UHGV virus genome: UHGV-0252305
Origin: a virus
Length of the DNA: 43,472 nt
Strand: one strand, 5' to 3'
Part shown: piece by piece, positions 1-41,834 of the stretch
Numbering within the stretch: the stretch's first letter is position 1
Layout of the letters: every line of letters begins with the position of its first letter
Translations under genes and position numbers: made by a program
The notes under the pieces: model-generated
The model's input: only the letters and a program-made list of their open reading frames with translations
Database searches by the model: none
Told to the model about the DNA's origin: nothing

Positions 1-992
1 AAGGTAAAGATTATGTACATGTCATCGATATGGGCGAAATACTCGCTACGCATGGTGATAAAAAAATTCCAGCTCTAATCCGCAGGATGCGCGAAACCGC
101 AGGGGATGAACCTATTGGCATGGTTGCCTTCGACACCCTTAACCAGACGCTGGCCCTGACGATTGATAAGTTCGACGAGAACAGTTCATCAACAGCAATC
201 GGCATGGGTAAAGTTATCGCCATTCTGAAAGAAGTACGCGATGCAACTAAAGCCGCAGTAGGCGTTGTCCACCATACGCCGAAGGGTGGAAAGAAAGCAC
301 GCGGCAGTGGGGCGCTGTATGCGGGTGTTGACGTGGAACTGACAATCGAACGTGCAACCGACCGTCAGATAAACGTATATCACTCGAAATTCAAGCACGG
401 GCCTCAGCAGAAGACGGTTGGCATGGTGCTGGAGTCGGTACAGTTCCGTGAAGCGCCGCCGCCTAAAGAATACCGAGCGGTTGAGTTCCTGGGTAGCACA
501 GAGGAATACGGCACAATCGTAAACCTGGACCTGCCTGAACCACACAAGGCGCTTGTGTTGATGCCGTGGGGTTTCGAGCCGTTCAAAACTGACGAGGAGA
601 AAGAGCGGGAAGAAGGGTTGACGAAAGAAGGTAAAGAAAATGTACGTAAAACCGTAGAGAACGCCGTCAACAGTTCGGAGGCCACGATACTCGCGGCGTT
701 TGAACTGGCGGAAGGAACCTACAACGGCAACGAAGGCATCACAGTCGCCGCGGCGAATAAGCTCGCACAGTCAGACCCCAACGCAAAGGCGTTTAACTCC
801 AAAGAAGCCATAGAACGCGGGAAGATTAAGAAAATGGTTGAGGCTGGGTATCTTGTTCCGGGTACTGACGAAAACAATCAGATAATCCCAGGCCGTTACA
901 GACTGAACACCAAGATAACAGATAACAAGATTCCGAAGACAATATACGAACCGAATGAAATGCTGACAGTGACCGAGGAGGATTTGGAATGA
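1..992 (+). CDS. Primase-helicase, C-terminal part (RecA-like NTPase); 5'-truncated at window start, first full codon at position 3
   Basis: Frame is open from position 3 with no stop; motif VVHHTPKGGKKARGSGAL resembles the RecA/DnaB-type helicase H4 region; in frame with the ORF running off the window 3' end. Confidence 0.65.
   Translation, partial: GKDYVHVIDMGEILATHGDKKIPALIRRMRETAGDEPIGMVAFDTLNQTLALTIDKFDENSSSTAIGMGKVIAILKEVRDATKAAVGVVHHTPKGGKKARGSGALYAGVDVELTIERATDRQINVYHSKFKHGPQQKTVGMVLESVQFREAPPPKEYRAVEFLGSTEEYGTIVNLDLPEPHKALVLMPWGFEPFKTDEEKEREEGLTKEGKENVRKTVENAVNSSEATILAAFELAEGTYNGNEGITVAAANKLAQSDPNAKAFNSKEAIERGKIKKMVEAGYLVPGTDENNQIIPGRYRLNTKITDNKIPKTIYEPNEMLTVTEEDLE
975..992 (+). repeat. 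18-nt sequence identical to 3945..3962 (gene 3' end plus SD plus overlapping ATG)
   Basis: gaggaggatttggaatga at both loci; encodes C-terminal EEDLE and initiates a small ORF. Confidence 0.8.
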
Positions 993-1144
993 ATATTTAC
1001 GATTTTATAGATAACCCGTTTAAAGCAGTGAAGGCAGGATACCGCCCGTCATACCTGACATGTGTTTCCGCTGTAAGCAACAACTGGTGGACTTTTTGTG
1101 TGTGTATGCAGCGGGGATTTTTGCGGAGTTTAAAGACATTTTAG
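989..1144 (+). CDS. Hypothetical small protein (51 aa), translationally coupled
   Basis: ATG at 989 overlaps upstream stop (ATGA); strong SD GAGGAGGA upstream; codon-by-codon translation checked; not in ORF track (<60 aa). Confidence 0.35.
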   Translation: MNIYDFIDNPFKAVKAGYRPSYLTCVSAVSNNWWTFCVCMQRGFLRSLKTF

Positions 1145-1146
1145 AC

Positions 1147-1305
1147 ATGACGCTGGCAGAGATTATAAAGTGCCTTTTCAAATTAATTATATCGATAACT
1201 ATTGTTATAAGTTTTCCTGTAAGTGCGTGGTTTCTCGCCTGGATTCAGTACCTGAACGTGCAACACACTATTAAGAATTTGGAAGAACTCGATAAGTTGC
1301 TATAA
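1147..1305 (+). CDS. Hypothetical small hydrophobic protein (C-terminal part of track ORF 1060..1305)
   Basis: Hydrophobic stretch LFKLIISITIVISFPVSAWFLAWI; start uncertain, weak RBS. Confidence 0.25.
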   Translation: MTLAEIIKCLFKLIISITIVISFPVSAWFLAWIQYLNVQHTIKNLEELDKLL

Positions 1306-1311
1306 AAAGAA

Positions 1312-1328
1312 AGGGGCTTTAAGCCCCT
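1312..1328 (-). terminator. Intrinsic terminator after XRE gene
   Basis: 7-bp GC-rich stem aggggct/agcccct with T-run on - strand. Confidence 0.5.
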
Positions 1329-1534
1329 TCACCTAACGCCAGCCACTTGGCGTCTACTTCCAGAACTTCCGCCAGTTTGAACAGCGTTGCCGGGCGGACG
1401 TCCTGAGTTACTCCAAGTGCCAGTTGGTTAATCGCGCCCTGGGAAACGCCGGTCAGGGCCGCCAAACGGCGCTGGGAGATGCCGAGTTCTTTACGGCGTT
1501 GTTCTACACGGGTGCCTAGTTCAGATGGTTGCAT
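1319..1534 (-). CDS. XRE-family helix-turn-helix transcriptional regulator (Cro/CI-like)
   Basis: 71 aa; HTH signature ISQRRLAALTGVSQGAINQLALG; SD AAGGAG upstream of ATG; divergent from the + strand early operon. Confidence 0.8.
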   Translation of the reverse strand: MQPSELGTRVEQRRKELGISQRRLAALTGVSQGAINQLALGVTQDVRPATLFKLAEVLEVDAKWLALGEGA

Positions 1535-1554
1535 GTCAGTTACTCCTTAGTCAG

Positions 1555-1583
1555 TTGATATGTGAATAGTACCATATTAATTA
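1555..1583 (+). promoter_or_regulatory. Promoter-like site TTGATA-17-TAATTA (tandem with 1599..1627)
   Basis: Shares tgtgAATAGt word with next site; imperfect AATAG-N4-ATATT. Confidence 0.3.
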
Positions 1584-1598
1584 TTTTAGAAAAGCCCA

Positions 1599-1627
1599 TT
1601 GACATGTGAATAGTTCGCTATTATAGT
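1599..1627 (+). promoter_or_regulatory. Sigma70-like early promoter TTGACA-17-TATAGT with AATAG-N4-CTATT inverted repeat
   Basis: Near-consensus -35 and -10 at 17-nt spacing; inverted repeat at 1609..1622; 29 nt upstream of gene 1656. Confidence 0.6.
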
Positions 1628-1655
1628 TAGCCCATACCAAACGAGAGGGGCAGAT

Positions 1656-1883
1656 ATGAACACAATCACTGGGGCCATAGCTAAAGGTTTTCGAGCAATT
1701 TTCGGCGCTCCGCAAGAAGTGTGCACAAAACATAAATTTGTACTTTCTTGCGTAGTAGGGGATGAGTTTGATGGGTTCGATAAACTTGTTGTCTGTGACC
1801 ATTGCGGGCAAGAAGCTATTCAACACTCAAACGGTAAATTTGAACTAATAGACGATAGCCTTACTGAAGGCGACGGTGAGTAA
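1656..1883 (+). CDS. Hypothetical early protein with four Cys (possible zinc ribbon)
   Basis: First gene downstream of early promoter; Cys pattern C-x8-C ... C-x2-C; RBS GAGAGGGG. Confidence 0.55.
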   Translation: MNTITGAIAKGFRAIFGAPQEVCTKHKFVLSCVVGDEFDGFDKLVVCDHCGQEAIQHSNGKFELIDDSLTEGDGE

Positions 1884-1907
1884 CTTACACAAACAGGAGA
1901 GAAACAA

Positions 1908-2408
1908 ATGTTAGAGAAATTCTTAGTATTGCTGGAACGTTTCGTAGTTGCACATGAACTGATTGCCGCGAACAGTGCGAAACAAGTTGTTCAGGTTGCC
2001 GCGCCGCTGGAAGTAGAGACTGTATCGTACACCAAAGAAGCGGTAGCTGAGTGCGCTGAAGAAGCAACAAAAGAAATCCCGGTAGAAGGTGAAGACATCG
2101 TTGACACTAAACCGGCAGAAGAAGAGAAGCCAAAACGCAAGCCGCGTAAAGCTAAAGTAGAGGAAACGACGCCAGAGCCGGAAGAAGAGAAAGAAGAAGT
2201 AGACTATAAGTCTCTGCGCGACCAGATTCAGGCTATCGACGATGCAATTAACGAAGGTCCGAGCGATGCCGCGTGCGATGATTCTGATGAACTGCTGGAA
2301 GAGTTCACAGGTAAGAAAATGAAGATTGCAGCGATTAAAGACGAAGACCTGGCTGAATACCTGGAACGCTTGACAGCAATCAAGAACAAGTATTTCGAAG
2401 AAGAATAA
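1908..2408 (+). CDS. Highly acidic early protein (Glu/Asp-rich), hypothetical
   Basis: 166 aa with long E/D-rich tracts (EEEKEEVDYK, DDSDELLEEF); RBS AGGAGAGA. Confidence 0.6.
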   Translation: MLEKFLVLLERFVVAHELIAANSAKQVVQVAAPLEVETVSYTKEAVAECAEEATKEIPVEGEDIVDTKPAEEEKPKRKPRKAKVEETTPEPEEEKEEVDYKSLRDQIQAIDDAINEGPSDAACDDSDELLEEFTGKKMKIAAIKDEDLAEYLERLTAIKNKYFEEE

Positions 2409-2415
2409 CTATCTC

Positions 2416-2434
2416 GCGGCCTTCGGGCCGCTTT
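2416..2434 (+). terminator. Weak intrinsic terminator or attenuator
   Basis: Stem gcggcc/ggccgc, loop ttcg, followed by only TTT. Confidence 0.4.
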
Positions 2435-2451
2435 AACTGAGGGTCGGAATT

Positions 2452-2724
2452 ATGATTTACCAACTCTACCGAGCCGTCGACAGGCGGGATAACACAGAGG
2501 CGCTATGGCTATTGCGTGCTCCGTCCGGTGCGCACCAGATGGAAGAGATGGCGTACTTAGGAAAAGTACCACGGCCTAAAGATACAGGCCGTCACGTGTC
2601 ACAGATTAAGCGCACAACTTTCGCCAAGCCTGACTTTTATGTCTTCGAGTCGATGTATGGGTGGGCCATGCACTGCGACCATAAGACACGACATTTAATT
2701 GACCAGTGGGAGAACAGGGTATGA
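2452..2724 (+). CDS. Hypothetical protein
   Basis: 90-aa ORF, stop overlaps next start (ATGA). Confidence 0.5.
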   Translation: MIYQLYRAVDRRDNTEALWLLRAPSGAHQMEEMAYLGKVPRPKDTGRHVSQIKRTTFAKPDFYVFESMYGWAMHCDHKTRHLIDQWENRV

Positions 2725-3962
2725 TTCTAAAAGAACGCGGTGGCAATAATGATGTGCACGCCTTATTGTCGCCGTCAGGTGCTAAGAAGTGGCTGACGTG
2801 CAGTGCATCACTGGCCTGTGAAAAAGATATTCCTAACACGTCAGGTAAAGCTGCCGTTACGGGGACCGCCATGCACACCATAGCTGAGGTCCATCTCAAC
2901 ACCTATATACGCGGCACTGCGTTGCCGTTGGAGCGTGAAGTCGGCGCTTACGTACTGGATGAAGGCAAAGGTCAGATTAAGGCGCTAATCAGCCCGATGA
3001 AAGGCGCGGTACTGATTACGGCGGACATGATTGAGCAGGTGCGCAAGTACACCGACTACTGCAAAGCGATTATAGACGTAGCGACTTACGCCAAGCTGGA
3101 AATGCGTGTCAATCTTACTGAGGTATTGCATCCGGGGTATGAAGGCGTTGAGACGTTCGGAACCGCTGACCTCGTTGCTGTCCAGGAACTGGCAAACACC
3201 GACGAGCACATGCTCATTATCGGCGACCTGAAAACCGGGCGGCATCGCGTCGAAGCGAAAGAAAACAAGCAGCTTATGCTTTACGCTCTCGGTGTTTATC
3301 GTCGACTCAAGAGACGTTATAACATAACAACCGTTCGTCTGGTCATCTTCCAGCCTTACGCTGGGGGCGCGACAGAGTGGGACATCTCGGTTGAAGGACT
3401 GGAACTGTTCGCTAAGTTCGCACAGAAACGCGCGCTGTTAGCGCTTGATGCGTATTTCCGTGGCAAGAAGAACCTGAAAGCGTCGGACTTCAAGCCATCG
3501 GTAGATGGTTGTCAGTGGTGCCGGTTCTCTGAACAATGCGCTGCGCGTACAAAGACGGTTAATTCTGTACTGGCGGAAGAACTGGAAGACGACTTTGTGC
3601 TGGAACTGACGCCGGAGCAACTCGTAGCTGAGTATGAGAAGTTGCCGCTGTTGCGCCAGCACATCGACAAGGTTGAGAAAGCTATGGCGGCCGCGTTGCA
3701 TTCAGGTAAGAAAGTTCCTGGTTACAAGTTGGTTGAAGGCCGCCCGGGTAATCGTGCATGGAAAGACGCGGAGAAAGTAACAGAACTCTACGGCGACAAG
3801 CTGACTAAAGAAGTGCTCATGTCACCTACCGAAGCTGTTAAAGTCATACCGGAAGAAGAACTGAAAGACTTCATTACCCGTAAGCCAGGCGCACCATGTG
3901 TCGCAACGGCAGACGACAAACGTCCTGAGTGGAATCAGGTAACAGAGGAGGATTTGGAATGA
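2721..3962 (+). CDS. Cas4-like / RecB-family PD-(D/E)XK nuclease with Fe-S cysteine cluster
   Basis: D...IGDLKTG...QLMLYAL nuclease motifs; N-terminal Cys (LTCSA) plus C-terminal CQWCRFSEQC (C-x2-C-x5-C); ATG at 2721 has SD GGGAG, track GTG start at 2706 does not. Confidence 0.75.
   Translation: MILKERGGNNDVHALLSPSGAKKWLTCSASLACEKDIPNTSGKAAVTGTAMHTIAEVHLNTYIRGTALPLEREVGAYVLDEGKGQIKALISPMKGAVLITADMIEQVRKYTDYCKAIIDVATYAKLEMRVNLTEVLHPGYEGVETFGTADLVAVQELANTDEHMLIIGDLKTGRHRVEAKENKQLMLYALGVYRRLKRRYNITTVRLVIFQPYAGGATEWDISVEGLELFAKFAQKRALLALDAYFRGKKNLKASDFKPSVDGCQWCRFSEQCAARTKTVNSVLAEELEDDFVLELTPEQLVAEYEKLPLLRQHIDKVEKAMAAALHSGKKVPGYKLVEGRPGNRAWKDAEKVTELYGDKLTKEVLMSPTEAVKVIPEEELKDFITRKPGAPCVATADDKRPEWNQVTEEDLE
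3945..3962 (+). repeat. Second copy of the 18-nt gene-junction repeat
   Basis: Identical to 975..992. Confidence 0.8.
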
Positions 3963-4162
3963 TTCAAGTAAATGAAATGCCCACAGATAAAGATTTTGTG
4001 ATGATATGGCGCTGGGGCGGTTATATCCATTCGGAATCGTTTACGTTCCTGAACGGCACGATGGTGCGATACAACCATGTGGAGGATGAATTCGAACCCG
4101 TTGATATGAATGATTTCGAGAACATAGTCCGTATTGCGAAATTTTATTTGACACCTGAATAG
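3959..4162 (+). CDS. Hypothetical protein (67 aa)
   Basis: ATG overlaps upstream stop (ATGA); same SD-containing 18-nt sequence as at 975..992. Confidence 0.5.
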   Translation: MIQVNEMPTDKDFVMIWRWGGYIHSESFTFLNGTMVRYNHVEDEFEPVDMNDFENIVRIAKFYLTPE

Positions 4163-4176
4163 TTAGCTATTATAGT
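4148..4176 (+). promoter_or_regulatory. Promoter-like site TTGACA-17-TATAGT with AATAG-N4-CTATT
   Basis: Inverted repeat at 4158..4171; upstream of SSB-like gene. Confidence 0.55.
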
Positions 4177-7450: not shown

Positions 7451-7731
7451 CCCCGGAAGGCAAGATTCAGAAATACGCAAAAGAGCAATTCGAGGCCATT
7501 GGCGGCCTCGTTCGTAAACTTTCGTACGAGGGGCGCTCCGGCGCCCCTGACCTGCTGGTAATTCTCCCCGGCGGCATCGTCTGGTTCGTCGAGGTTAAGA
7601 AAGACGAAAACACGAAGCCAGACCCGCACCAGTTACGTGAGCATGAGCGGATGCGTAAACGCGGTGCAAATGTTTTTGTCGTTGGTTCGTTTAAACAGGT
7701 TGACGACCTAATAGCAAACTATTATAGTTAG
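7447..7731 (+). CDS. VRR-NUC domain nuclease
   Basis: 94 aa; PD-(D/E)XK-type motif PDLLVIL...VEVKK typical of VRR-NUC. Confidence 0.75.
   Translation: MTPEGKIQKYAKEQFEAIGGLVRKLSYEGRSGAPDLLVILPGGIVWFVEVKKDENTKPDPHQLREHERMRKRGANVFVVGSFKQVDDLIANYYS
7700..7728 (+). promoter_or_regulatory. Promoter-like site TTGACG-17-TATAGT with AATAG-N4-CTATT
   Basis: Inverted repeat at 7710..7723; lies in 3' end of VRR-NUC gene, upstream of 7762. Confidence 0.55.
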
Positions 7732-19758: not shown

Positions 19759-20175
19759 CTACTTTTCCTGCAATTGGTGAAGCTGTTCGTTGTGGAAAAC
19801 AACAACGTGTTCAGCGAGGCGTTTATATTGTGAAAAAAGAGTATTCAGGTTCTCTTTATTAAATTCATCGTCGAGACTCCAACCGTTAACCAGTTCAAGT
19901 GCTAACTGGCGGTTAAGGTCCGTCGCGGCGTCTTCCATCTTAATGTTATATTCCGAGAAATCTTTCAGTTCCTCGCATTTATCACGAAGCGGCTTCAGTT
20001 TACCTAACGACGCGCGGTACGCCAGGGTAAATGCACGCATGGCTTTAACCGCAACGTCTGCCTCCGGTGAAACAACGTTCAGCCACTCCCCTGAATCGGT
20101 GCCGTCTTTCAGTGGGATCGGCATACGGGCGCCTTTTTCTGCCTCAGCTTCGTAATAAAAATCAGAAAGTTTCAT
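19759..20175 (-). CDS. Tail assembly chaperone (gpG-like)
   Basis: 138 aa, acidic, immediately upstream of T-frame and tape measure; SD AAGGA. Confidence 0.55.
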   Translation of the reverse strand: MKLSDFYYEAEAEKGARMPIPLKDGTDSGEWLNVVSPEADVAVKAMRAFTLAYRASLGKLKPLRDKCEELKDFSEYNIKMEDAATDLNRQLALELVNGWSLDDEFNKENLNTLFSQYKRLAEHVVVFHNEQLHQLQEK

Positions 20176-20282
20176 TCTTTAATCCTTTGGTTAAGAGGTT
20201 ACGGGTTAAGGTTAATGCGCCAGACGGGAACCACCCGCTTTTCGTGTGCGACACTAGGCGCAAAATTATTCTATCACATTAC

Positions 20283-20311
20283 TTGCACACCCCAATATAA
20301 TAGTGTACTAT
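20283..20311 (+). promoter_or_regulatory. Promoter-like site TTGCAC-17-TACTAT with AATAG-N4-CTATT
   Basis: Inverted repeat at 20299..20311; upstream of Imm-like gene and enzyme cassette. Confidence 0.5.
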
Positions 20312-20352
20312 TCACTTACACCAACGATGTTATCCCAAACAGGAGCTACACC

Positions 20353-20544
20353 ATGACGGGTATTACTATGTTCTTCTTAATCATTATCGTTTTAGTTTAT
20401 TTTATTCCATTTCTCGTGGCGCATATGCGCGACCATAAAGCGAAATTAGCGATATTCATGGCTAATCTGTTTCTTGGATGGGTTCTGCTGCCGTGGGTAT
20501 TTATTTTAATCTGGGCTTGCAACTCGAATGTCAAAGAGAAGTGA
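20353..20544 (+). CDS. Superinfection-immunity-type small membrane protein (Imm-like, 2 TM)
   Basis: YFIPFLVAHMRDHKAKLAIFMANLFLGWVLLPWVFILIWA matches my recollection of the Imm_superinfect family; ATG at 20353 with SD AGGAG. Confidence 0.55.
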   Translation: MTGITMFFLIIIVLVYFIPFLVAHMRDHKAKLAIFMANLFLGWVLLPWVFILIWACNSNVKEK

Positions 20545-20581
20545 GCTAGTATAGGACAAATCCTAAGCACGAGGAATAAAC

Positions 20582-21712
20582 ATGGCCCGGAAGAAAATAA
20601 CCGACGAACAGTTGCAGGAAGAATTGAACGCCGGTATGAAGAATGTGGATATCGCCCGTAAATACGGCATCTCAGACCGCGTAATTCGTATCCGTAAAGC
20701 GAAGCTGGCTAAGAAAGGCGTGGGCCACGGGCGCGACGTTAGCCACCTTGTGCCAGACGGCTACAAGATTAAAGGAACGTCGTCACTTGTGGACGAGTTC
20801 GGCAACACTAAGTTGCAATGGATTAAGACTGATACCGACGCCGAACGTCAGGTTGAATTGATGAAAGCCGTAATAGAGGGCATGAAGTCAGAGATTACGC
20901 CCGTTGCGCCTGTTAAAGCGGCGCGCGCCAAACGTGACGACAAGCTACTCAATCTTTACACTGTATCTGATTTCCATCTCGGTATGCTGGCATGGGCCGA
21001 TGAGAGCGGCGACGACTGGGACATGAAGATTGCAGAAGACCTGTTCTCTCGGTGGTTCGACGCGGCGTTTCAGAAAGCACCGGATGCAGGAACAGGAGTT
21101 ATTAACCTGCTTGGGGACTTCGCACACTTCGATAGTCTTGATGCCGTTACCCCCGAGTCGCGCCATGTATTAGATGCGGATACTCGCTATCAGAAACTGG
21201 TACGTTACATGATTCGTATGGTCCGCCGTGTTGTTGATATGGCGCTGGTTAAGCATCACACAGTAAAACTTTTAATCGTTCAAGGTAACCACGACCCTGT
21301 TGGCTCCGTATGGCTTGCCGAAATGTTCACGGTTTTATACTCAAACGACAGCCGAGTGATTGTTGATACGTCGCCGGATGTTTACAAGATGGTGCAACAC
21401 GGCAAAACGACGCTGTTCTTCCATCACGGGCATAAAGCACGATTCGACGCTATCGAACCGGTTATGATTGCCAAGTTCCGTAAAGCGTTCGGCGAGAGTG
21501 TTTACAGCTACGCCCACGTAGGCCATCTGCACCACCAGAAGATTGTAGAAAGCCGTAACATGATTGTTGAGCAACACCGCACCTTAGCGGCTAAAGACGC
21601 CTACGCCTCTCGCGGCGGATGGATGTCGGGCCGCAGTGCAAATGTAATTACTTATAGCGCCGAATATGGCGAGGTCGCACGTTTAACTATTTCACCGGAG
21701 ATGCTGGGATGA
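20582..21712 (+). CDS. N-terminal HTH fused to calcineurin-like metallophosphoesterase (Mre11/SbcD-like motifs)
   Basis: HTH-like NVDIARKYGISDRVIRIRKAKL; phosphoesterase motifs DFHLG, LGDFAHFD, QGNHDP, HHGH, GHLHH. Confidence 0.7.
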   Translation: MARKKITDEQLQEELNAGMKNVDIARKYGISDRVIRIRKAKLAKKGVGHGRDVSHLVPDGYKIKGTSSLVDEFGNTKLQWIKTDTDAERQVELMKAVIEGMKSEITPVAPVKAARAKRDDKLLNLYTVSDFHLGMLAWADESGDDWDMKIAEDLFSRWFDAAFQKAPDAGTGVINLLGDFAHFDSLDAVTPESRHVLDADTRYQKLVRYMIRMVRRVVDMALVKHHTVKLLIVQGNHDPVGSVWLAEMFTVLYSNDSRVIVDTSPDVYKMVQHGKTTLFFHHGHKARFDAIEPVMIAKFRKAFGESVYSYAHVGHLHHQKIVESRNMIVEQHRTLAAKDAYASRGGWMSGRSANVITYSAEYGEVARLTISPEMLG

Positions 21713-22197
21713 AAGATATTGTAATTTTCGATTTAGACGGGACATTGGCCGACGGTACCCATCGCTTACACCTGTTACCAAAAGATAACTACGGAGAAAC
21801 GTGGGCGTGGAAGCCATTTAACATGGCCTGCAAAGATGACGCTCCGATATACGACAATATCCATTTGTGTAGCGTACTGTGGCATTCCGGACTTACTATA
21901 ATTATCCTTACCGGGCGAAGTGATGACGCTGAGGAGGAGACTCGCGAATGGTTACGAGAGAATAACGTTAGGTTTGACACGCTAATCATGCGCAGCAAAC
22001 ACGACAACAGAAAAGACATCGTAATTAAAGAAGAGGTGTTGCGTGCTTTCGGACTGGAAAGAATCTTGTGTGCGTTCGACGACTCTCCAGCGGTAATAAA
22101 GCATTTCCGTGACCTCGGCATAACCGTACACGCAGTTACCGAATACGACTGTAACGGGAACTCTACACACTTAAAACCACACGGGAGCGATAAATAA
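21709..22197 (+). CDS. HAD-family phosphatase, T4 polynucleotide kinase 3'-phosphatase-like
   Basis: Motif I IFDLDGTLA, motif II IILTGR, motif III KHDNRKDIVIKEE, motif IV FDDSP; pattern recalled from T4 Pnk phosphatase domain. Confidence 0.7.
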   Translation: MKDIVIFDLDGTLADGTHRLHLLPKDNYGETWAWKPFNMACKDDAPIYDNIHLCSVLWHSGLTIIILTGRSDDAEEETREWLRENNVRFDTLIMRSKHDNRKDIVIKEEVLRAFGLERILCAFDDSPAVIKHFRDLGITVHAVTEYDCNGNSTHLKPHGSDK

Positions 22198-22751
22198 TGG
22201 CTAAGGTAATTATTCTTAATGGCCCTGCGGGTTGCGGGAAAGACACGCTTGCTATGGCGCTGGTAGAAATGGGCTTTGCGAAAGGAACTACCAGTTTCAA
22301 GAATCCAATGTTCAATATTGCTTTGGCAGCGTTAGGCCAGGATGCTTACCACGAATTTCTCGACGGCTACGACGACCGGGCGCGGAAAGAAAAACCCGAG
22401 GGTTTTCTTAATGGGTTGTCCCGCCGCCGGTTAATGATTGCCATTTCTGAGCAATTCATTAAACCGGTATTCGGCGATGATTATTTCGGTAAGTATCTTG
22501 CTGAAAACTTGCCTGACGGCGACGAAGTTTTTGTAGTGTCCGATGGTGGATTCGCCAGTGAAGTTGCCCCTATCGTCGCCGCGGGGCATGACGTGCGAAT
22601 CGTCCGCCTCCATCGTGACGGCTATACGTTCATCTGCGATAGCCGTGGCTATCTGTACGATGTTAGTGGTGTAAAAGATTACGACACCTACATCATACCG
22701 GGTGACGTTAAATCGAACGTTATAGACATTGCTTTAAAATTAGGTTTGTAA
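22197..22751 (+). CDS. P-loop nucleotide kinase (T4 gp1 dNMP-kinase-like)
   Basis: Walker A ILNGPAGCGKDT; RRLM segment recalled from T4 gene 1 kinase; start overlaps upstream stop by 1 nt. Confidence 0.65.
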   Translation: MAKVIILNGPAGCGKDTLAMALVEMGFAKGTTSFKNPMFNIALAALGQDAYHEFLDGYDDRARKEKPEGFLNGLSRRRLMIAISEQFIKPVFGDDYFGKYLAENLPDGDEVFVVSDGGFASEVAPIVAAGHDVRIVRLHRDGYTFICDSRGYLYDVSGVKDYDTYIIPGDVKSNVIDIALKLGL

Positions 22752-22756
22752 GAAAA

Positions 22757-22779
22757 AGGCCCCGAAAGGGGCCTTAGTT
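22757..22779. terminator. Bidirectional terminator between kinase gene and major tail gene
   Basis: Stem aggcccc/ggggcct, loop gaaa; A/T runs on both sides. Confidence 0.7.
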
Positions 22780-23952
22780 TTATGCGTAGGTGATACGTTG
22801 AATTACGATAGACGACTGGTACTGATTGCCGGTAGCCTGGCCTTCAATGGACTGAGTGATTGACTCAGGCCCACCAATCTCAGGTGTAACCGCCGTAAGC
22901 TCTGCACGTTTCAAACTGAAAGACATAGCCCCGTTTACCCCTGCCAGAATAGAGTTAATCTCTACCTGCTGCTCGTTGATAAACTTCTGAATCATCGCCA
23001 TGTCGTACAGCTTGCCAGAGATAGAGAATGTGTTAGCTGCGCGTCCACGTTCGACGAACGCCACGCTACTGTTACCGAGTTCGAACTGCGCGGAAGCTCC
23101 GTTGTCGTTGGTGATGGTGAGAGTATCGCAACGCAACGGCGTGGAGCCATCGAACACCGACACATCTACCGACGAGAACGGCTCATCGGTGAACGTAACC
23201 TGAGAGAAATCAGAGCCAGACGGCGGCTCGGTAAGAATCTCCTGACTCAGGCCGATGAACGGGAAGCTGCCGGTGACCATGGCGTTAACCGCCTGCTCTA
23301 CGGTAAAGCCAGAGATTTCCACACCTTTGGTCAGCATGTACGCGCCCGGGTTACCACACTGGCCCTTGAACCACGTCAGGATGGAGAACGTCTTACACGC
23401 GTTACCGGTTTCCAGCTTGTCGCCAGTTTTTGCGTCAGTGGTTACTGTCTCTGCTGTCAGCGTGTGCTGAATACCTGCGCCCGTAACTACCAGAGCGGAA
23501 ACCGCGGTCACGATAAACGGTTTTGCGTTGTCGCCGGTTAAGCCGGTGAACGCAATAAGGTCGCCAACTTCTACACCGTCAGTAATGAAGTCACCGGCAG
23601 CGCGGGTGAATGTTTTACCTGCTGGGGCGACCGTAATTTTGGCGCCAGTAATCTTTACCCCAGCTTGCCACGTAGAAGTCATCGCTCCCGCAAGGAAATC
23701 ATCCTGGCTACGAGAGCTAAGTTCGATGGCGTACTCCCCGCTAACCTGTTTGTTACCGGTTCGGATGGATGTAGTTTCACGGCTGCCGTCCAGTTCGTTG
23801 GAAGTCAGTGCATCGCGGGTTACAGCGGGAACGCCGCCCGTGTTACGCAACGGCGACCATACCGGGTTAGTCGGTGTTACGCCAGGGGTATTTTCCGCCA
23901 CATAGAATTGCGCGGTATTCGCGCCCTTAAAAGGAGTTGTAGCCATATTCAC
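22780..23952 (-). CDS. Major tail protein (putative)
   Basis: 390 aa; first large gene of tail module after connector genes; Ser/Thr/Gly-rich. Confidence 0.55.
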   Translation of the reverse strand: MNMATTPFKGANTAQFYVAENTPGVTPTNPVWSPLRNTGGVPAVTRDALTSNELDGSRETTSIRTGNKQVSGEYAIELSSRSQDDFLAGAMTSTWQAGVKITGAKITVAPAGKTFTRAAGDFITDGVEVGDLIAFTGLTGDNAKPFIVTAVSALVVTGAGIQHTLTAETVTTDAKTGDKLETGNACKTFSILTWFKGQCGNPGAYMLTKGVEISGFTVEQAVNAMVTGSFPFIGLSQEILTEPPSGSDFSQVTFTDEPFSSVDVSVFDGSTPLRCDTLTITNDNGASAQFELGNSSVAFVERGRAANTFSISGKLYDMAMIQKFINEQQVEINSILAGVNGAMSFSLKRAELTAVTPEIGGPESITQSIEGQATGNQYQSSIVIQRITYA

Positions 23953-29492: not shown

Positions 29493-29647
29493 CAATAGAG
29501 TATGGCCCTTCCGAACGCGTCAGCGTAACTACACTCAGGACTTACGTCCCGCTCCGTTACCTGCCCGCGCCGCGGTCGCTTGTTCATACTTCACAAGCTC
29601 AGGTGGAGCTTAGCACATTTTTGGTGAAAAGTCAACTATTCGAATAG
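29493..29647 (+). repeat. ~150-bp intergenic direct repeat, copy 1
   Basis: Aligns by eye with 41415..41567 at roughly 75% identity; includes 16-bp palindrome AACTATTCGAATAGTT at 29634..29649. Confidence 0.7.
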
Positions 29648-29701
29648 TTTATTCCAACATTTACAATTGAGTGGAATAACCGGAATACATAAACAAATAG
29701 T

Positions 29702-29730
29702 TTGCGCACCCCAATATAATAGGGTGCTAT
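29702..29730 (+). promoter_or_regulatory. Promoter-like site TTGCGC-17-TGCTAT with AATAG-N4-CTATT
   Basis: Inverted repeat at 29718..29731; upstream of lipoprotein cassette. Confidence 0.45.
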
Positions 29731-29757
29731 TCATTCTATCGAACCGGGGAGGCCGTC

Positions 29758-31937: not shown

Positions 31938-32591
31938 ATGAAACTGCAAACATTAGAGTTCCCTTATGGAGAAATCACTTTTGACCGTGAAAACTTTATT
32001 AACGTAAACGAGCTGGTTGACCAGATGAACCGTTGGCGTTTAGACAACGGCATGGGGGCCAGAGAGCTTCGCCAGGTCATGGCAACGGATGGCTTCAAGA
32101 TTTTCAAGGAGGAATGCGAAAAACAACTCGGAATCGAGAATGCCATAAGGGCGACGAAAGGCCGAAACGGTCGCACCTTTGCATGTCTCCATCTGGCAGT
32201 ATATATTGCTGAGCAATACAGCGCCTATTTCCATTTCCTCGTTATCGACCGCTTTATCACACAACGGCAGGTAGAACTACGAAACATTGGCGCGGTGAGC
32301 TTTGTCGAGCTTAACGCTGCCGTTAGTCGAATGATCGAGCGCACGGAGGGAAGAATTGGCCACAGTGGACACTTCATACAGGTGGCTAAAGCGGTAAAGG
32401 AATCCGTAGATATCCGCGACGTAACGGGTTTCGATACATGGGACTCTCAGGATGCGAAGACCAATCAGTTGCGAAGTGACATCCAGAAAGCTCTGGTGAC
32501 GCTTCTTGACATGGAGGCCGTTAATACATGGGGTGAACTGAAAGAGGCGATACCTCGGGTTGTGCGTAAATGTGCGGCTAATATACGTTAA
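31938..32591 (+). CDS. KilA-N domain protein
   Basis: KGRNGRTFACLHLAVYIAEQYSAYFHFLVIDRF fits KilA-N signature; own promoter with palindromic operator; bidirectional terminator downstream. Confidence 0.6.
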   Translation: MKLQTLEFPYGEITFDRENFINVNELVDQMNRWRLDNGMGARELRQVMATDGFKIFKEECEKQLGIENAIRATKGRNGRTFACLHLAVYIAEQYSAYFHFLVIDRFITQRQVELRNIGAVSFVELNAAVSRMIERTEGRIGHSGHFIQVAKAVKESVDIRDVTGFDTWDSQDAKTNQLRSDIQKALVTLLDMEAVNTWGELKEAIPRVVRKCAANIR

Positions 32592-37728: not shown

Positions 37729-37757
37729 AATATAATAGGGTCGAGGATAATAGTCAA
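37729..37757 (-). promoter_or_regulatory. Promoter-like site TTGACT-17-TATATT
   Basis: Read on - strand, just downstream of lysis-cassette terminator and upstream of gene 37483..37695. Confidence 0.45.
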
Positions 37758-37780
37758 CTAGTCATCACAGAAAATAGATA

Positions 37781-40112: not shown

Positions 40113-40144
40113 TTCGTTTTCCTCTGTCTCGTCTGTGTAAACGA

Positions 40145-40173
40145 ATAGTAGCCTATTCTATCTTAGTGCGCAA
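40145..40173 (-). promoter_or_regulatory. Promoter-like site TTGCGC-17-TACTAT with AATAG-N4-CTATT
   Basis: Inverted repeat at 40144..40157; upstream of 39927..40112 and the lysis genes. Confidence 0.5.
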
Positions 40174-40530
40174 GTAAATTTTATTGGTGTTTGTATTGTT
40201 GCATCTCCTGCAATAGCCGCTTCGATTGTTGCGTTTGGTGAAATAGAACAAAAATGAGAAAAATGATACGCTGCTGTGTAGCAGCGTAGGCCACTCAGTA
40301 AAATCCCAAACTATTGTTACAGTATAACATAACACTTCTGGCGGCTCGGGTAACGGCATCCAGTGCGTCACGTACTTATCGTAGTTATTCCAGAAAGGCT
40401 TTCTCCCGTCATCAGGAACGATGTAATAATCGTGTTGAACTGCGTTATTTAACGTTTCATACACCAGGAATTCTTTATCCGTATACCCGTTACCCGGCAG
40501 CATCTCACTACACTTAATCCACTCGCCCAT
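40153..40530 (-). CDS. DUF551-like protein; C-terminal ~60 codons of the ORF overlap a terminator and a promoter and may not be genuine
   Basis: N-terminal WIKCSEMLP ... VTHWMPLPEPP fits DUF551 as recalled; ORF continues without stop through hairpin at 40267..40288. Confidence 0.5.
   Translation of the reverse strand: MGEWIKCSEMLPGNGYTDKEFLVYETLNNAVQHDYYIVPDDGRKPFWNNYDKYVTHWMPLPEPPEVLCYTVTIVWDFTEWPTLLHSSVSFFSFLFYFTKRNNRSGYCRRCNNTNTNKIYLRTKIE
40250..40288 (-). terminator. Intrinsic terminator lying inside the 3' part of ORF 40153..40530
   Basis: 8-bp stem tacgctgc/gcagcgta then T-rich tract on - strand. Confidence 0.5.
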
Positions 40531-41099: not shown

Positions 41100-41220
41100 C
41101 CGGCTTCTCTCTCTCTTAGTTAATTTAGGTTCTGCTTACCGGGCTTATCGACTCTTCGTATGCTCGTCGCCGATACTGACCTTATTAAAGGTTGGCCCCC
41201 TGCCTCGCCCAGATAAGTGA

Positions 41221-41249
41221 ATAGTAACCTATTATGTTGGGGTGTGCAA
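41221..41249 (-). promoter_or_regulatory. Promoter-like site TTGCAC-17-TACTAT with AATAG-N4-CTATT
   Basis: Inverted repeat at 41220..41233; ~120-nt leader to secreted-protein gene 40794..41099. Confidence 0.5.
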
Positions 41250-41414
41250 GAGAATAGTTACGTTGCCGTTGTGATTCTTTCGTTTCTTAAAAGAGTACGC
41301 AACGCAGTGGGTGGGCGTTAGCCCACCCCAGCGGAGTGAAGTACTCTCTACCTTGCTCACGGCAACTATAGAAACTTTTAATTATCAGTGACTTGGATAT
41401 TTAGGCGGGATTAA

Positions 41415-41663: not shown

Positions 41664-41834
41664 ATGACTATCAATGAAGTTGCAGAATTAATCGGCGTCA
41701 CCCGCCAGACGATCAATAACTGGATTAAGAGTGGAAAGTTTCCTGATTGCAGCGTTAAAGTAATGGGGCGCCGTTTACCAGGAACATTTGACCGTAATAA
41801 AGTTGAAGCGTGGATTAAGGAGAACGTGAAATGA
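41664..41834 (+). CDS. AlpA/excisionase-like small HTH DNA-binding protein
   Basis: MTINEVAELIGVTRQTINNWIKSGKFP; ATG at 41664 with SD AGGAGA. Confidence 0.6.
   Translation: MTINEVAELIGVTRQTINNWIKSGKFPDCSVKVMGRRLPGTFDRNKVEAWIKENVK

What the first reader, a model, noticed from the sequence alone, without database searches (positions are those of the whole stretch)
1319..1660. Switch-like region: XRE repressor gene divergent from the early operon, with tandem operator-bearing promoters
The XRE-family gene is transcribed leftward, and the rightward early operon starts 120 nt away from two tandem promoter-like sites sharing the AATAG-type operator word. A candidate leftward promoter (TTCACA-16-TAAAAT on the - strand) overlaps them. 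This resembles a cI/cro-type control region, yet no integrase or recombinase is present, which suggests a timing switch in a lytic phage rather than a lysogeny switch.
Basis: partly seen in the sequence, partly recalled or inferred. Interest (0 to 1): 0.45.

Follow-up and report, generated by a model that had tools for sequence, protein, structure and literature searches.

The report
Cro-like regulator with genome-wide operator sites
A virulent E. coli phage (Kagunavirus) carries a small Cro-like DNA-binding gene whose control region holds two copies of a 14-base palindrome, and this palindrome also sits on about eight other phage promoters, so it looks like a genome-wide transcription brake or timer rather than a local lysogeny-type switch, which makes it a tidy but fairly ordinary case.

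Summary
A 71-aa XRE/HTH_3 gene (1319-1534, minus strand) lies 121 nt from a rightward operon. The gap holds a near-consensus sigma-70 promoter (P2, TTGACA-17-TATAGT) and a 25-nt direct repeat of it.

The shared "AATAG word" is half of a palindrome, AATAG-N4-CTATT. This is the most over-represented palindrome in the window: 7 perfect copies against about 0.04 expected, plus 3 copies with one mismatch. Every copy is intergenic or at a gene boundary and overlaps a -10-like hexamer. In 36 Kagunavirus relatives the half-sites are invariant while the central 4 bp vary.

The protein is 434-Cro/P22-c2-like in sequence and predicted fold. By my recollection those proteins read 5-4-5 operators.

Comparative data support P2 but not the upstream "P1". 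That copy is better read as the operator and extended -10 promoter (TGgTACTAT) of the XRE gene itself.

There is no partner repressor and no integrase, so this is not a bistable cI/cro switch.

The most likely mechanism is an autoregulated Cro-like repressor that turns down phage promoters genome-wide (confidence about 0.5).

The main rival is a 56-aa HTH_17 protein that co-occurs with the palindrome across genera.

The motif was already published as a PHIRE "phage promoter". I score this as a new member of a known kind, of modest interest.

The parts
1319..1534 (-). XRE/Cro-type HTH gene, 71 aa, monocistronic
   Evidence: ORF. Pfam HTH_3 E 3.9e-13. 434 Cro, 434 repressor and P22 c2 are the best PDB sequence hits (E 5e-6 to 3e-3). 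AF2 model has five helices, pLDDT 77, TM 0.75-0.84 to 434 Cro and P22 c2.
1310..1330 (-). Intrinsic terminator of the XRE transcript (9-bp perfect stem followed by a T-run on the minus strand); it also ends the rightward primase operon region
   Evidence: Terminator scan. Inverted repeat I2, 100% complementary.
1564..1579 (.). O1: imperfect operator GAATAG-TACC-ATATTA (one mismatch in the right half)
   Evidence: Invariant in Kagunavirus relatives except base 1572.
1566..1574 (-). Best-conserved candidate promoter of the XRE gene: extended -10 TGgTACTAT, lying inside O1
   Evidence: Read from the sequence. In relatives the only O1 substitutions fall on the 'n' of TGn (L010, L039). Jerseyvirus has TTGCAC-17-TACTAT at the same place.
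1583..1610 (-).
   Evidence: 10/12. Its -35 is not conserved, and the site is lost in L039.
1555..1584 (+). P1-like site TTGATA-18-AATTAT (doubtful promoter; upstream copy of the 25-nt repeat)
   Evidence: 9/12. The -35 is degraded in 4 relatives.
1599..1627 (+). P2: TTGACA-17-TATAGT, promoter of the rightward replication-gene operon
   Evidence: 11/12. Both hexamers are invariant in 36-38 relatives.
1608..1623 (.). O2: perfect operator GAATAG-TTCG-CTATTA, in the spacer and -10 edge of P2
   Evidence: Half-sites are invariant; the central 4 bp and the 3-4 nt upstream vary.
1656..1883 (+). First rightward gene, 75 aa, four Cys, phrog_32657 of unknown function; accessory (absent in many relatives)
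4148..4176 (+). Type-A promoter with operator (TTGACA-cct-GAATAGTTAGCTATTA-TAGT), upstream of the Gp2.5-like ssDNA-binding gene
7700..7728 (+). Type-A promoter with operator (TTGACG-acc-TAATAGCAAACTATTA-TAGT), upstream of the small ORF and SNF2 helicase
20283..20313 (.). Operator 20298-20313 in a divergent intergenic region. Plus strand: TTGCAC-17-TACTAT. Minus strand: operator followed by TATATT and the TTGGGGTGTGCAAG block.
29702..29732 (.). Operator 29717-29732 in a divergent intergenic region (TTGCGC-17-TGCTAT on the plus strand; TATATTGGGGTGCGCAAA on the minus strand). An imperfect site lies at 29626-29641.
40143..40173 (-). Operator 40143-40158 within TTGCGC-17-TACTAT, an internal promoter of the leftward operon of small ORFs
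41219..41250 (.). Operator 41219-41234 in the divergent region between the leftward small-ORF operon (TTGCAC-17-TACTAT, minus strand) and the rightward HTH_17/primase operon
37748..37763 (-). One-mismatch site GACTAGTTGACTATTA, next to TTGACT-17-TATATT and after a terminator
41664..41834 (+). 56-aa HTH_17 (excisionase/MerR-like) protein; rival candidate for the palindrome binder
   Evidence: Pfam HTH_17 E 3.2e-10. Present only in Kagunavirus and Jerseyvirus.

Best explanation
The region is the promoter-operator module of a small 434-Cro/P22-c2-like XRE protein in a virulent Kagunavirus.

Proposed mechanism:
1. The protein is made early from its own short transcription unit. That unit runs from a promoter inside or next to O1, through the gene, to the terminator at 1310-1330.
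2. It binds as a dimer to 14-16 bp operators of the form (G/T)AATAG-N4-CTATT(A/C). The two 5-bp half-sites are read by the recognition helices, and the central 4 bp are not contacted.
3. O2 lies in the spacer and -10 edge of the strong rightward promoter P2. O1, a weaker site, covers the -10 of the XRE gene's own promoter. Occupancy therefore blocks RNA polymerase at both. This gives negative autoregulation plus turn-down of the replication operon.
4. The same operator overlaps the -10 or spacer of about eight more promoters. These are 4148, 7700, 20298, 29717, 40143 and 41219, plus imperfect sites at 29626 and 37748. The protein would thus act as a genome-wide Cro-like governor or timer of phage transcription, not as one arm of a bistable lysogeny switch.

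Shown: the gene family and fold, the promoters as consensus matches, and the palindrome's excess, its positions and its conservation pattern.

Inferred: that XRE is the binder, that binding represses, and the timing.
For: 1. Palindrome excess. AATAG-N4-CTATT is the top palindrome in the window, with 7 perfect copies. GAATAGN4CTATTA with up to 2 mismatches gives 20 strand-hits against 2.6 +/- 1.7 in shuffles, maximum 8. My arithmetic gives about 0.04 perfect copies expected by chance.
2. Position. All copies are intergenic or at gene boundaries and in fixed register with -10-like hexamers. Four have TTGAYR 3 nt upstream, at 17-bp hexamer spacing in the three type-A promoters. Four more, plus O1, carry TACTAT or TGCTAT inside the site.
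3. Footprint in relatives. In 29-36 distinct Kagunavirus sequences the half-sites are invariant. The central 4 bp and the 3-4 nt between the -35 and the site vary. Bas70 has 7 perfect sites at the same positions with different centres.
4. Family. XRE is HTH_3. It aligns over residues 6-68 with 434 Cro, the 434 repressor and P22 c2, and its model matches them at TM 0.75-0.84. By my recollection, not tested here, those proteins read 14-18 bp operators with the same 5-4-5 layout and non-contacted centres.
5. Adjacency. The only place with two sites 44 bp apart is directly upstream of the XRE gene.
6. Module inheritance. In L076 and L078 a Jersey-type XRE gene plus the whole intergenic region is joined to Kaguna-like downstream genes, with the junction exactly at P2's -10.
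7. Covariation. The operator's outer base tracks the XRE allele. It is T at 82/82 half-sites in Jersey-XRE genomes and G at 172/374 in Kaguna-XRE genomes. BCH953P1 and K1ind2 have divergent HTH_17 recognition helices but Kaguna XRE, and they keep the Kaguna-type sites.
8. Expression. In Kagunavirus K1B4 RNA-seq, an HTH gene (no. 008, three genes after the AAA primase gene) is one of only four early genes (PMC12645636). I infer from gene order that it is the XRE orthologue.
Against: - No binding data exist.
- Kaguna and Jersey XRE are only 48% identical and differ at three of six exposed recognition-helix positions (SQGAINQL against SQSLITHL). Both genera nevertheless carry the same AATAG-N4-CTATT core.
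- Cornellviruses keep an XRE orthologue at 41-44% identity whose helix resembles Jersey's. They have no perfect palindrome in about 43 kb (VSiA) or in four further loci.
- XRE is far more diverged than its neighbours (ssDNA-binding protein 76-98%, exonuclease 73-94%, HTH_17 77-95% identical). That is unusual for a regulator tied to about 10 dispersed sites.
- Operators also sit in the control regions of the structural-gene operons. Pure repression there needs an extra explanation.
- In the K1B4 study the DNA polymerase gene is classed as late, and the sampling was coarse.
Confidence: 0.5

Rival explanations
1. The genome-wide palindrome is read by the 56-aa HTH_17 (excisionase/MerR-like) protein encoded at 41664-41834. 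XRE would then act only locally or on some other target.
For: - HTH_17 homologues occur only in Kagunavirus and Jerseyvirus (443 phage records, 60-100% identity).
- The palindrome is present in exactly those genera. It is absent from Cornellvirus, which lacks HTH_17 but keeps XRE.
- HTH_17 is 77-95% identical between genera, matching the unchanged core operator. XRE is only 48% identical.
- Its own operon starts at an operator-bearing region (41219).
- MerR-like HTH proteins and AlpA act from sites between -35 and -10 (PMC9371919).
Against: - The phyletic pattern rests on a single contrast (Cornellvirus), and many other genes differ there too.
- A symmetric 5-4-5 palindrome fits a Cro-type dimer. 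By my recollection, minimal Xis- or BldC-like HTH_17 domains bind direct repeats.
- The protein lacks a MerR coiled coil. It also lacks the N-terminal ring domain that AlpA needs.
- Its recognition helix varies within Kagunavirus (TRQTINNW, TRRTLNNW, SPMTLNRW) with no change in the operators.
- The outer operator base follows the XRE allele instead.
Confidence: 0.2
2. The bound protein, whichever it is, works mainly as an activator at promoters that lack a -35. These are the minus-strand readings at 20298 and 29717 and the plus-strand reading at 41219. It would switch transcription from the divergent early units to the structural and primase units, and its role is not only to repress.
For: - Three sites lie in divergent intergenic regions and share a second conserved block, TTGGGGTGTGCAAG.
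- On the strand facing the structural and primase genes there is a -10 (TATATT or TATGTT) but no -35.
- From memory, not retrievable here: a strong promoter of the Jersey-like phage MB78 was reported to lack a -35 and to interact with a phage-specific factor.
- At 20298, an extended -10 TGaTAGAAT lies about 44 bp from the operator centre. That is a cI-at-OR2-like distance (sequence).
Against: - The -10 assignment is ambiguous, because several overlapping hexamers exist at each site.
- The downstream -10 is good only at 20298, not at 29717 or 41219.
- An operator centred at about -18 is a repressor position for Cro/CI-type proteins.
- No transcript data are available.
Confidence: 0.15
3. The region is a relic or working cI/cro-type immunity switch. 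It would allow pseudolysogeny or superinfection immunity, in line with the first reader's resemblance.
For: - The protein has a Cro/CI-type fold.
- The layout is divergent.
- The regulator and its operators are inherited as a module, and XRE alleles are highly diverged, as in immunity regions.
- Relatives are annotated 'repressor', 'Cro' or 'DicA'.
Against: - There is only one regulator gene, with no partner repressor, integrase or partition genes.
- The protein has no C-terminal oligomerisation or cleavage domain (71 aa).
- The operators are genome-wide, not confined to one locus.
- The group is described as strictly virulent (PMC9825357, PMC7203180).
Confidence: 0.07
4. The palindrome is an intrinsic promoter element, the 'phage-specific promoter' reported from PHIRE. 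It would be read directly by an RNA polymerase or a host factor, not by a phage regulator.
For: Published consensus tgAATAGTa-ccTATTat-T, 7 copies, described as promoters for a phage-encoded RNA polymerase (PMC9825357). Seven PHIRE elements are reported in phage Golestan (PMC7203180). The right half overlaps the -10.
Against: - No RNA polymerase gene is present in the window or in Bas70.
- The sites sit inside ordinary sigma-70 promoters.
- The left half-site lies in the spacer, where sigma-70 has no sequence requirement, yet it is invariant.
- Orthologous Cornellvirus promoters keep the -35 and -10 but have lost the palindrome.
Confidence: 0.05

Closest known systems
Phage 434 Cro and its OR operators (also the 434 repressor N-terminal domain)
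   Same: - Both proteins are 71 aa.
- The same five-helix HTH_3 fold: sequence E 5e-6 over residues 6-68 and 37-40% identity in the structural alignment.
- Gln at the first recognition-helix position is conserved.
- By my recollection, 434 operators are 14 bp with conserved outer bases and a non-contacted centre, and they overlap divergent promoters.
   Different: - There is no partner cI gene and no PRM/PR bistable pair.
- There are two sites next to the gene instead of three.
- The same operator is spread over about 10 promoters genome-wide.
- The host phage is virulent.
P22 c2 repressor N-terminal domain and P22 operators
   Same: Fold match at TM 0.78-0.85. Similar recognition-helix pattern, S-x-x-A-I-x-Q. 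By my recollection, P22 operators have the 5-4-5 layout TTAAG-N4-CTTAA, with central bases that tune affinity. The variable centres seen here match that layout.
   Different: Different half-site sequence. No C-terminal dimerisation or RecA-cleavage domain. No immunity function is demonstrated.
Lambda Cro's role in lytic growth (turn-down of early promoters)
   Same: A small early repressor with no lysogenic function of its own. It would lower transcription from strong early promoters and from its own promoter.
   Different: Lambda Cro has a different fold and acts at two operator regions only. Here the sites also lie in the control regions of structural-gene operons.
Controller (C) proteins of restriction-modification systems (C.AhdI, C.BclI)
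   Same: XRE-fold proteins of about 70-80 aa (structural hits; sequence E 0.06). Autoregulation through tandem palindromic boxes upstream of their own gene. They are used as a delay timer.
   Different: C-boxes are adjacent and act mainly by activation followed by repression at one promoter. No R-M genes are linked here. The spacing of O1 and O2 is 44 bp.
PHIRE 'phage-specific promoter' motif of Kagunaviruses (fBC-Eco01, Golestan)
   Same: The same sequence, tgAATAGTa-ccTATTat-T, at about 7 copies per genome (PMC9825357; PMC7203180).
   Different: The papers ascribe it to a phage RNA polymerase that these genomes do not encode. They do not link it to either HTH protein or note its palindromic, operator-like conservation pattern.

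Membership tests
XRE / Cro-CI type HTH (Pfam HTH_3, PF01381) | Sequence match to the family model above the curated threshold | tested here: met
   E 3.9e-13, 49.6 bits against a cut-off of 23, covering residues 11-65.
XRE / Cro-CI type HTH (Pfam HTH_3, PF01381) | Five-helix globular fold, with helices 2 and 3 forming the HTH | tested here: met
   AF2 model with helices 5-17, 21-28, 32-39, 48-57 and 62-66, pLDDT 77. Foldseek TM 0.75-0.85 to 434 Cro, 434 repressor, P22 c2 and SinR.
Lambdoid Cro/CI operator system (434/P22 type) | Dimer binding to a 14-18 bp two-fold symmetric operator with conserved half-sites and a variable centre | tested here: inconclusive
   A palindrome of that geometry exists, is highly enriched and shows that conservation pattern. 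That XRE binds it is not testable with these tools.
Lambdoid Cro/CI operator system (434/P22 type) | Two antagonistic repressor genes transcribed divergently from a shared operator region (bistable switch) | tested here: not met
   Only one HTH gene is present at the locus. The rightward genes at 1656, 1908 and 2452 have no Pfam family and unknown-function PHROGs.
Lambdoid Cro/CI operator system (434/P22 type) | Association with lysogeny functions (integrase, or a repressor with a cleavable C-terminal domain) | tested here: not met
   No integrase or recombinase in Bas70 or in the window's ORFs. The protein is a bare 71-aa domain.
Lambdoid Cro/CI operator system (434/P22 type) | Specificity covaries with the recognition helix | tested here: inconclusive
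   The outer operator base (G against T) follows the XRE allele. However, the core AATAG is shared by alleles with different helices, and Cornellvirus XRE has no such sites.
Q/AlpA-type promoter-loaded antiterminators (considered for the HTH_17 rival) | HTH that reads an element between -35 and -10, plus an N-terminal segment forming a ring in the RNA exit channel; the protein is about 150 aa | tested here: not met
   The HTH_17 protein is 56 aa (at most 86 aa from an upstream TTG) and consists of the HTH alone. The requirements are taken from PMC9371919.
Phage-RNA-polymerase promoters (the published reading of the motif) | A phage-encoded RNA polymerase is present | tested here: not met
   No such gene in the 83-gene annotation of Bas70 or among the window's ORFs.

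The most novel reading that the evidence does not exclude
A single 71-aa Cro-like protein would be wired to essentially every promoter of a virulent siphophage. At the three divergent intergenic sites (20298, 29717, 41219), one operator would shut off an early promoter (TTGCAC-17-TACTAT) while enabling the opposite promoter that lacks a -35 and drives the structural or primase genes. The whole early-to-late programme would then run on one repressor/activator and graded operator strength, with no phage sigma factor, RNA polymerase or antiterminator.
Probability: 0.15. Interest if true: 0.6.

Novelty: new member of a known kind. Interest (0 to 1): 0.35.

Why it matters
Guernseyvirinae (Kagunavirus and Jerseyvirus) are among the phages most often proposed for therapy and food biocontrol. 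Several hundred genomes are deposited: 443-544 phage records matched. I found no experimental study of how they order gene expression, apart from one coarse RNA-seq time course (PMC12645636).

Reading the published "phage promoter" motif as the operator of a Cro-like protein gives a concrete and cheap hypothesis to test. It names about 10 defined sites and two candidate binders.

It also corrects an annotation error, since these phages encode no RNA polymerase. It bears on safety calls as well, because "repressor", "Cro" and "excisionase" labels in these genomes do not imply lysogeny.

The promoters could also be reused as compact repressible parts.

Tried and rejected
1. Distant XRE homologues with the same recognition helix in unrelated contexts, to test operator linkage independently. 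The word-indexed protein search returned only relatives at 77% identity or more. The genome-contig scan returned one Jerseyvirus contig plus unrelated XRE proteins with other helices and no palindromes.
2. De novo search for an alternative palindrome or repeat in Cornellvirus. Nothing was enriched, and only decayed 1-2-mismatch remnants remain at orthologous promoters.
3. AlpA/Q-like antitermination as a role for HTH_17. I rejected it because AlpA needs an N-terminal ring domain and this protein is 56 aa.
4. Per-gene expression values for the K1B4 phage. The supplements held as text contain host tables only.
5. MB78 promoter literature. It is not in the library, so it is cited only as recollection.
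6. Rfam scan of the whole window. There were no matches, so no known RNA element is involved.
7. Host-factor boxes recalled from memory (ARG box, IHF, TyrR and others). None matches AATAG-N4-CTATT. This was not tested further.
8. Consistent assignment of a -10 downstream of the TTGGGGTGTGCAAG block. It works at 20298 (TGaTAGAAT) but not at 29717 or 41219, so I left it unresolved.
Full report
**What the window is.** The 43.5-kb window is essentially a whole genome of a Kagunavirus (subfamily Guernseyvirinae), a virulent E. coli siphophage. Bases 900-2500 match 443 phage records. Identity reaches 99% to phages Bas70 and KMB35, over the 75% of the query that they share, and the weaker hits are Salmonella Jerseyviruses. 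The Bas70 annotation and the ORF map give this layout:

- a rightward operon for an HTH_17 protein and the helicase-primase, running across the window ends to a hairpin at 1310-1330
- the leftward XRE gene
- a rightward replication operon: DUF2800 exonuclease, Gp2.5-like ssDNA-binding protein, DNA polymerase, SNF2 helicase
- two leftward structural blocks (tail; head and major tail), each starting in a divergent intergenic region at about 20.3 kb and 29.7 kb
- a long leftward block from 41.1 kb: small ORFs, lysis genes, terminase, portal

No integrase or recombinase is present.

- The ORF 1319..1534 (minus strand, 71 aa) is a clear HTH_3 protein (E 3.9e-13).
- The gap to the next rightward ORF (1656) is 121 nt.
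- The consensus scan finds P2 = TTGACA-17-TATAGT at 1599..1627 (11/12), P1 = TTGATA-18-AATTAT at 1555..1584 (9/12), and the leftward TTCACA-16-TAAAAT at 1610..1583 (10/12).
- P1 and P2 sit in a 25-nt direct repeat, 21/25 identical and 44 nt apart.
- The shared 11-mer with up to one mismatch occurs 4 times in the window against 0.53 expected.
- A 9-bp perfect hairpin followed by a T-run on the minus strand (1330..1310) ends the XRE transcript. The gene is therefore a monocistronic unit.

**The "operator word" is half of a genome-wide palindrome.** The two extra 11-mer hits (20307, 41215) led to GAATAG-N4-CTATTA.

- With up to two mismatches this pattern gives 20 strand-hits against 2.6 +/- 1.7 in shuffles, with a maximum of 8.
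- An unbiased count of all 5-N-5 palindromes puts AATAG-N4-CTATT first, with 7 perfect copies at 1609, 4158, 7710, 20299, 29718, 40144 and 41220. The other top palindromes are terminator stems.
- About 0.04 perfect copies are expected by chance (43,472 x 4^-10, my arithmetic).
- One-mismatch copies lie at 1565 (O1), 29627 and 37749.
- All ten are intergenic or at gene boundaries.

**Two promoter contexts.** Type A is TTGAC(A/G)-N3-[GAATAG-N4-CTAT(TA]TAGT). It is found at 1599, 4148 and 7700, all rightward in the replication operon, and more weakly at 1555. Here the site fills the spacer and touches the -10.

Type B is TTGC(A/G)C-N17-T(A/G)CTAT, with the -10 inside the palindrome. It is found at 20283-20311 (plus strand), 29702-29730 (plus), 41249-41221 (minus) and 40173-40145 (minus). 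I read these. They score 8/12, below the scan's threshold.

Three type-B sites lie in divergent regions and carry a second conserved block, TTGGGGTGTGCAAG. On the other strand a TATATT or TATGTT hexamer follows the palindrome with no -35. Several -10-like hexamers overlap at each site. Which ones fire cannot be settled without transcript 5' ends.

**Comparative footprint.** Thirty-seven IMG/VR loci encode XRE at 78-99% identity. Their intergenic regions (38 distinct sequences) and alignments around four other sites show one pattern:

- The -35 and -10 of P2 and both half-sites are invariant.
- The central 4 bp vary (TTCG, TTCA, TTAG, CTAG, TTTG, CTCG).
- The 3-4 nt between the -35 and the site vary in sequence and length.

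Bas70 has 7 perfect sites at the orthologous places but with different centres. The left half-site lies in a promoter spacer, where sigma-70 has no base preference. Its conservation next to freely varying bases therefore points to a protein-binding site.

- P1's -35 is degraded in four relatives.
- The leftward TTCACA loses its last two bases in most relatives, and in L039 the whole TTCACA-16-TAAAAT arrangement is gone.

By contrast, the minus strand of O1 reads TAATATGGTACTATTC, which contains an extended -10, TGgTACTAT. The only O1 substitutions in relatives fall on the "n" of TGn (L010, L039). In Jerseyvirus the same TACTAT is preceded by TTGCAC at 17 bp. I therefore read the upstream repeat copy mainly as the XRE gene's own type-B promoter and operator.

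**The protein.** The best solved relatives by sequence are 434 Cro, the 434 repressor DNA-binding domain and P22 c2 (E 5e-6 to 3e-3, residues 6-68). The AF2 model (pLDDT 77) has five helices. It superposes on 434 Cro, the 434 repressor, P22 c2, SinR and C.AhdI at TM 0.75-0.85.

By my recollection, 434 and P22 operators are two-fold symmetric with about 5-bp contacted half-sites and a non-contacted 4-bp centre. That is the geometry and conservation pattern seen here.

In an RNA-seq time course of Kagunavirus K1B4, an HTH gene (008) is one of only four early genes (PMC12645636). Its position three genes after the AAA primase gene matches the XRE gene. That equivalence is my inference.

**Who binds the palindrome? 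The main uncertainty.** The evidence splits.

Against XRE:
- Jerseyvirus XRE is only 48% identical, with helix SQSLITHL against SQGAINQL. Yet SETP3 and ten other Jersey loci carry the same AATAG-N4-CTATT.
- Cornellviruses (VSiA, ZS, L080-L083) keep an XRE orthologue at 41-44% identity. They have no perfect site, no enriched palindrome, and only 1-2-mismatch remnants at orthologous promoters.
- A 56-aa HTH_17 protein (41664-41834) is present in exactly the palindrome-bearing genera, at 77-95% identity. It is absent from Cornellvirus.

For XRE:
- The site geometry fits a Cro-type dimer.
- Two sites sit next to its gene.
- In L076 and L078 a Jersey-type XRE gene and the complete intergenic region are spliced to Kaguna-like downstream genes exactly at P2's -10. 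The regulator and these operators therefore travel as one module.
- The base 5' of AATAG is T at 82/82 half-sites in Jersey-XRE genomes and G at 172/374 in Kaguna-XRE genomes.
- BCH953P1 has a Jersey-like HTH_17 recognition helix (TRRTLNNW), and K1ind2 has a 64%-identical one (SPMTLNRW). Both have Kaguna XRE and keep Kaguna-type GAATAG sites.

So variation in HTH_17 does not track the operator, while the XRE allele does. This signal is confounded by phylogeny. I put XRE at about 0.5, HTH_17 at about 0.2, and the remainder on other readings.

**Mechanism proposed.**
- XRE is made early from a promoter inside or next to O1.
- Dimers occupy O2 (a perfect site in the spacer and -10 edge of P2) and, at higher concentration, O1 (one mismatch, over the -10 of its own promoter).
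- This represses the replication operon and XRE itself.
- The same occlusion applies at the other operator-bearing promoters.
- The result is Cro-like negative feedback or a timer over the whole phage transcriptome.

Shown: the family and fold, the consensus promoters, and the palindrome's excess, positions and footprint. Inferred: binding, the sign of regulation, and timing. How the structural operons escape or exploit the sites at 20298 and 29717 is unexplained. An activator role at the promoters lacking a -35 is possible. I recall a report of such a promoter in the related phage MB78 that interacts with a phage factor, but I could not retrieve it.

**Comparison with what is known.** The module works like the Cro side of a 434/P22 immunity region but fails the membership tests for a cI/cro switch. 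It has no partner repressor, no lysogeny genes, and operators that are not confined to one locus.

GenBank records already call the gene "transcriptional regulator", "repressor", "Cro" or "DicA". The motif was published from PHIRE as tgAATAGTa-ccTATTat-T and ascribed to a phage RNA polymerase (PMC9825357; also PMC7203180). These genomes encode no such enzyme.

The new points here are:
- the motif's reading as a palindromic operator embedded in sigma-70 promoters
- its conservation pattern
- its loss in Cornellvirus
- the two candidate binders
- the modular inheritance with XRE

**Verdict.** Interest is modest at 0.35. It is a clean, testable regulatory hypothesis for a practically important phage group, but it would not surprise a specialist.

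Noticed in passing
window 989-1305 (+): Two overlapping ORFs in different frames (989..1144, 51 aa; 1060..1305, 81 aa) match consecutive parts of one family. They hit phrog_2638 at profile positions 2-35 and 29-96. This looks like a single gene of about 120 aa split by a frameshift, whether a mutation, a sequencing error or programmed. Relatives annotate a '13.88 kDa late protein' here, and Bas70 lacks the gene.
   Followed up: partly
window 20282-20295 (-), 41237-41250 (+), 29701-29714 (-): A 14-nt block, TTGGGGTGTGCAAG (exact twice, 2 mismatches once), lies 3-4 nt from three palindromes in divergent intergenic regions. A degenerate copy is at 40159-40174. Part of it is the -35 (TTGCAC) of the opposite-strand promoter, but the conservation of the whole block is unexplained.
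   Followed up: partly
L076 and L078 (IMG/VR Jerseyvirus contigs) against window 1479-4160: Recombination junctions between Jersey-like and Kaguna-like sequence fall exactly on promoters, at the -10 of P2 and near the -35 of the promoter upstream of the ssDNA-binding gene. The conserved promoter and operator sequences may act as crossover points for module exchange.
   Followed up: partly
L043 and L044 (Cornellvirus ZS, VSiA), about 20000-22900: In Cornellvirus the helicase-primase lies on the same strand as XRE, directly downstream. The HTH_17 gene is missing and the palindrome network is gone. Downstream of the primase gene is a G-rich repetitive stretch (GGGGAG-type runs) that holds two copies of GTGAATAGTTAT, one extended to the 12-bp palindrome GAATAGTTATTC.
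   Followed up: no
window 1656-1883 (+): The first gene after P2 (75 aa, four Cys in a possible zinc-ribbon pattern, phrog_32657 of unknown function) is present in only some Kagunavirus relatives. In most of the others the 166-aa acidic protein gene (1908-2408) follows P2 directly.
   Followed up: partly
window about 4884, 10026, 22757, 32597: Four copies of the same GC-rich hairpin (AGGCC(C)-N-(G)GGCCT) sit at the ends of gene blocks. They look like shared, probably bidirectional, terminators.
   Followed up: no
window 31938-32591 (+): A 217-aa ORF with a weak KilA-N match (E 4.6e-4) lies on the opposite strand inside the leftward head-gene block. It is 76% identical to SETP3 ORF4. At the same place VSiA carries a different 377-aa 'transcriptional regulator'. 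This is a third possible DNA-binding protein whose distribution matches the palindrome.
   Followed up: partly
Literature (PMC9825357): The Kagunavirus PHIRE motif is described as a promoter for a 'phage-encoded RNA polymerase', although no such gene is annotated in these genomes. This is probably a carried-over annotation error.
   Followed up: yes
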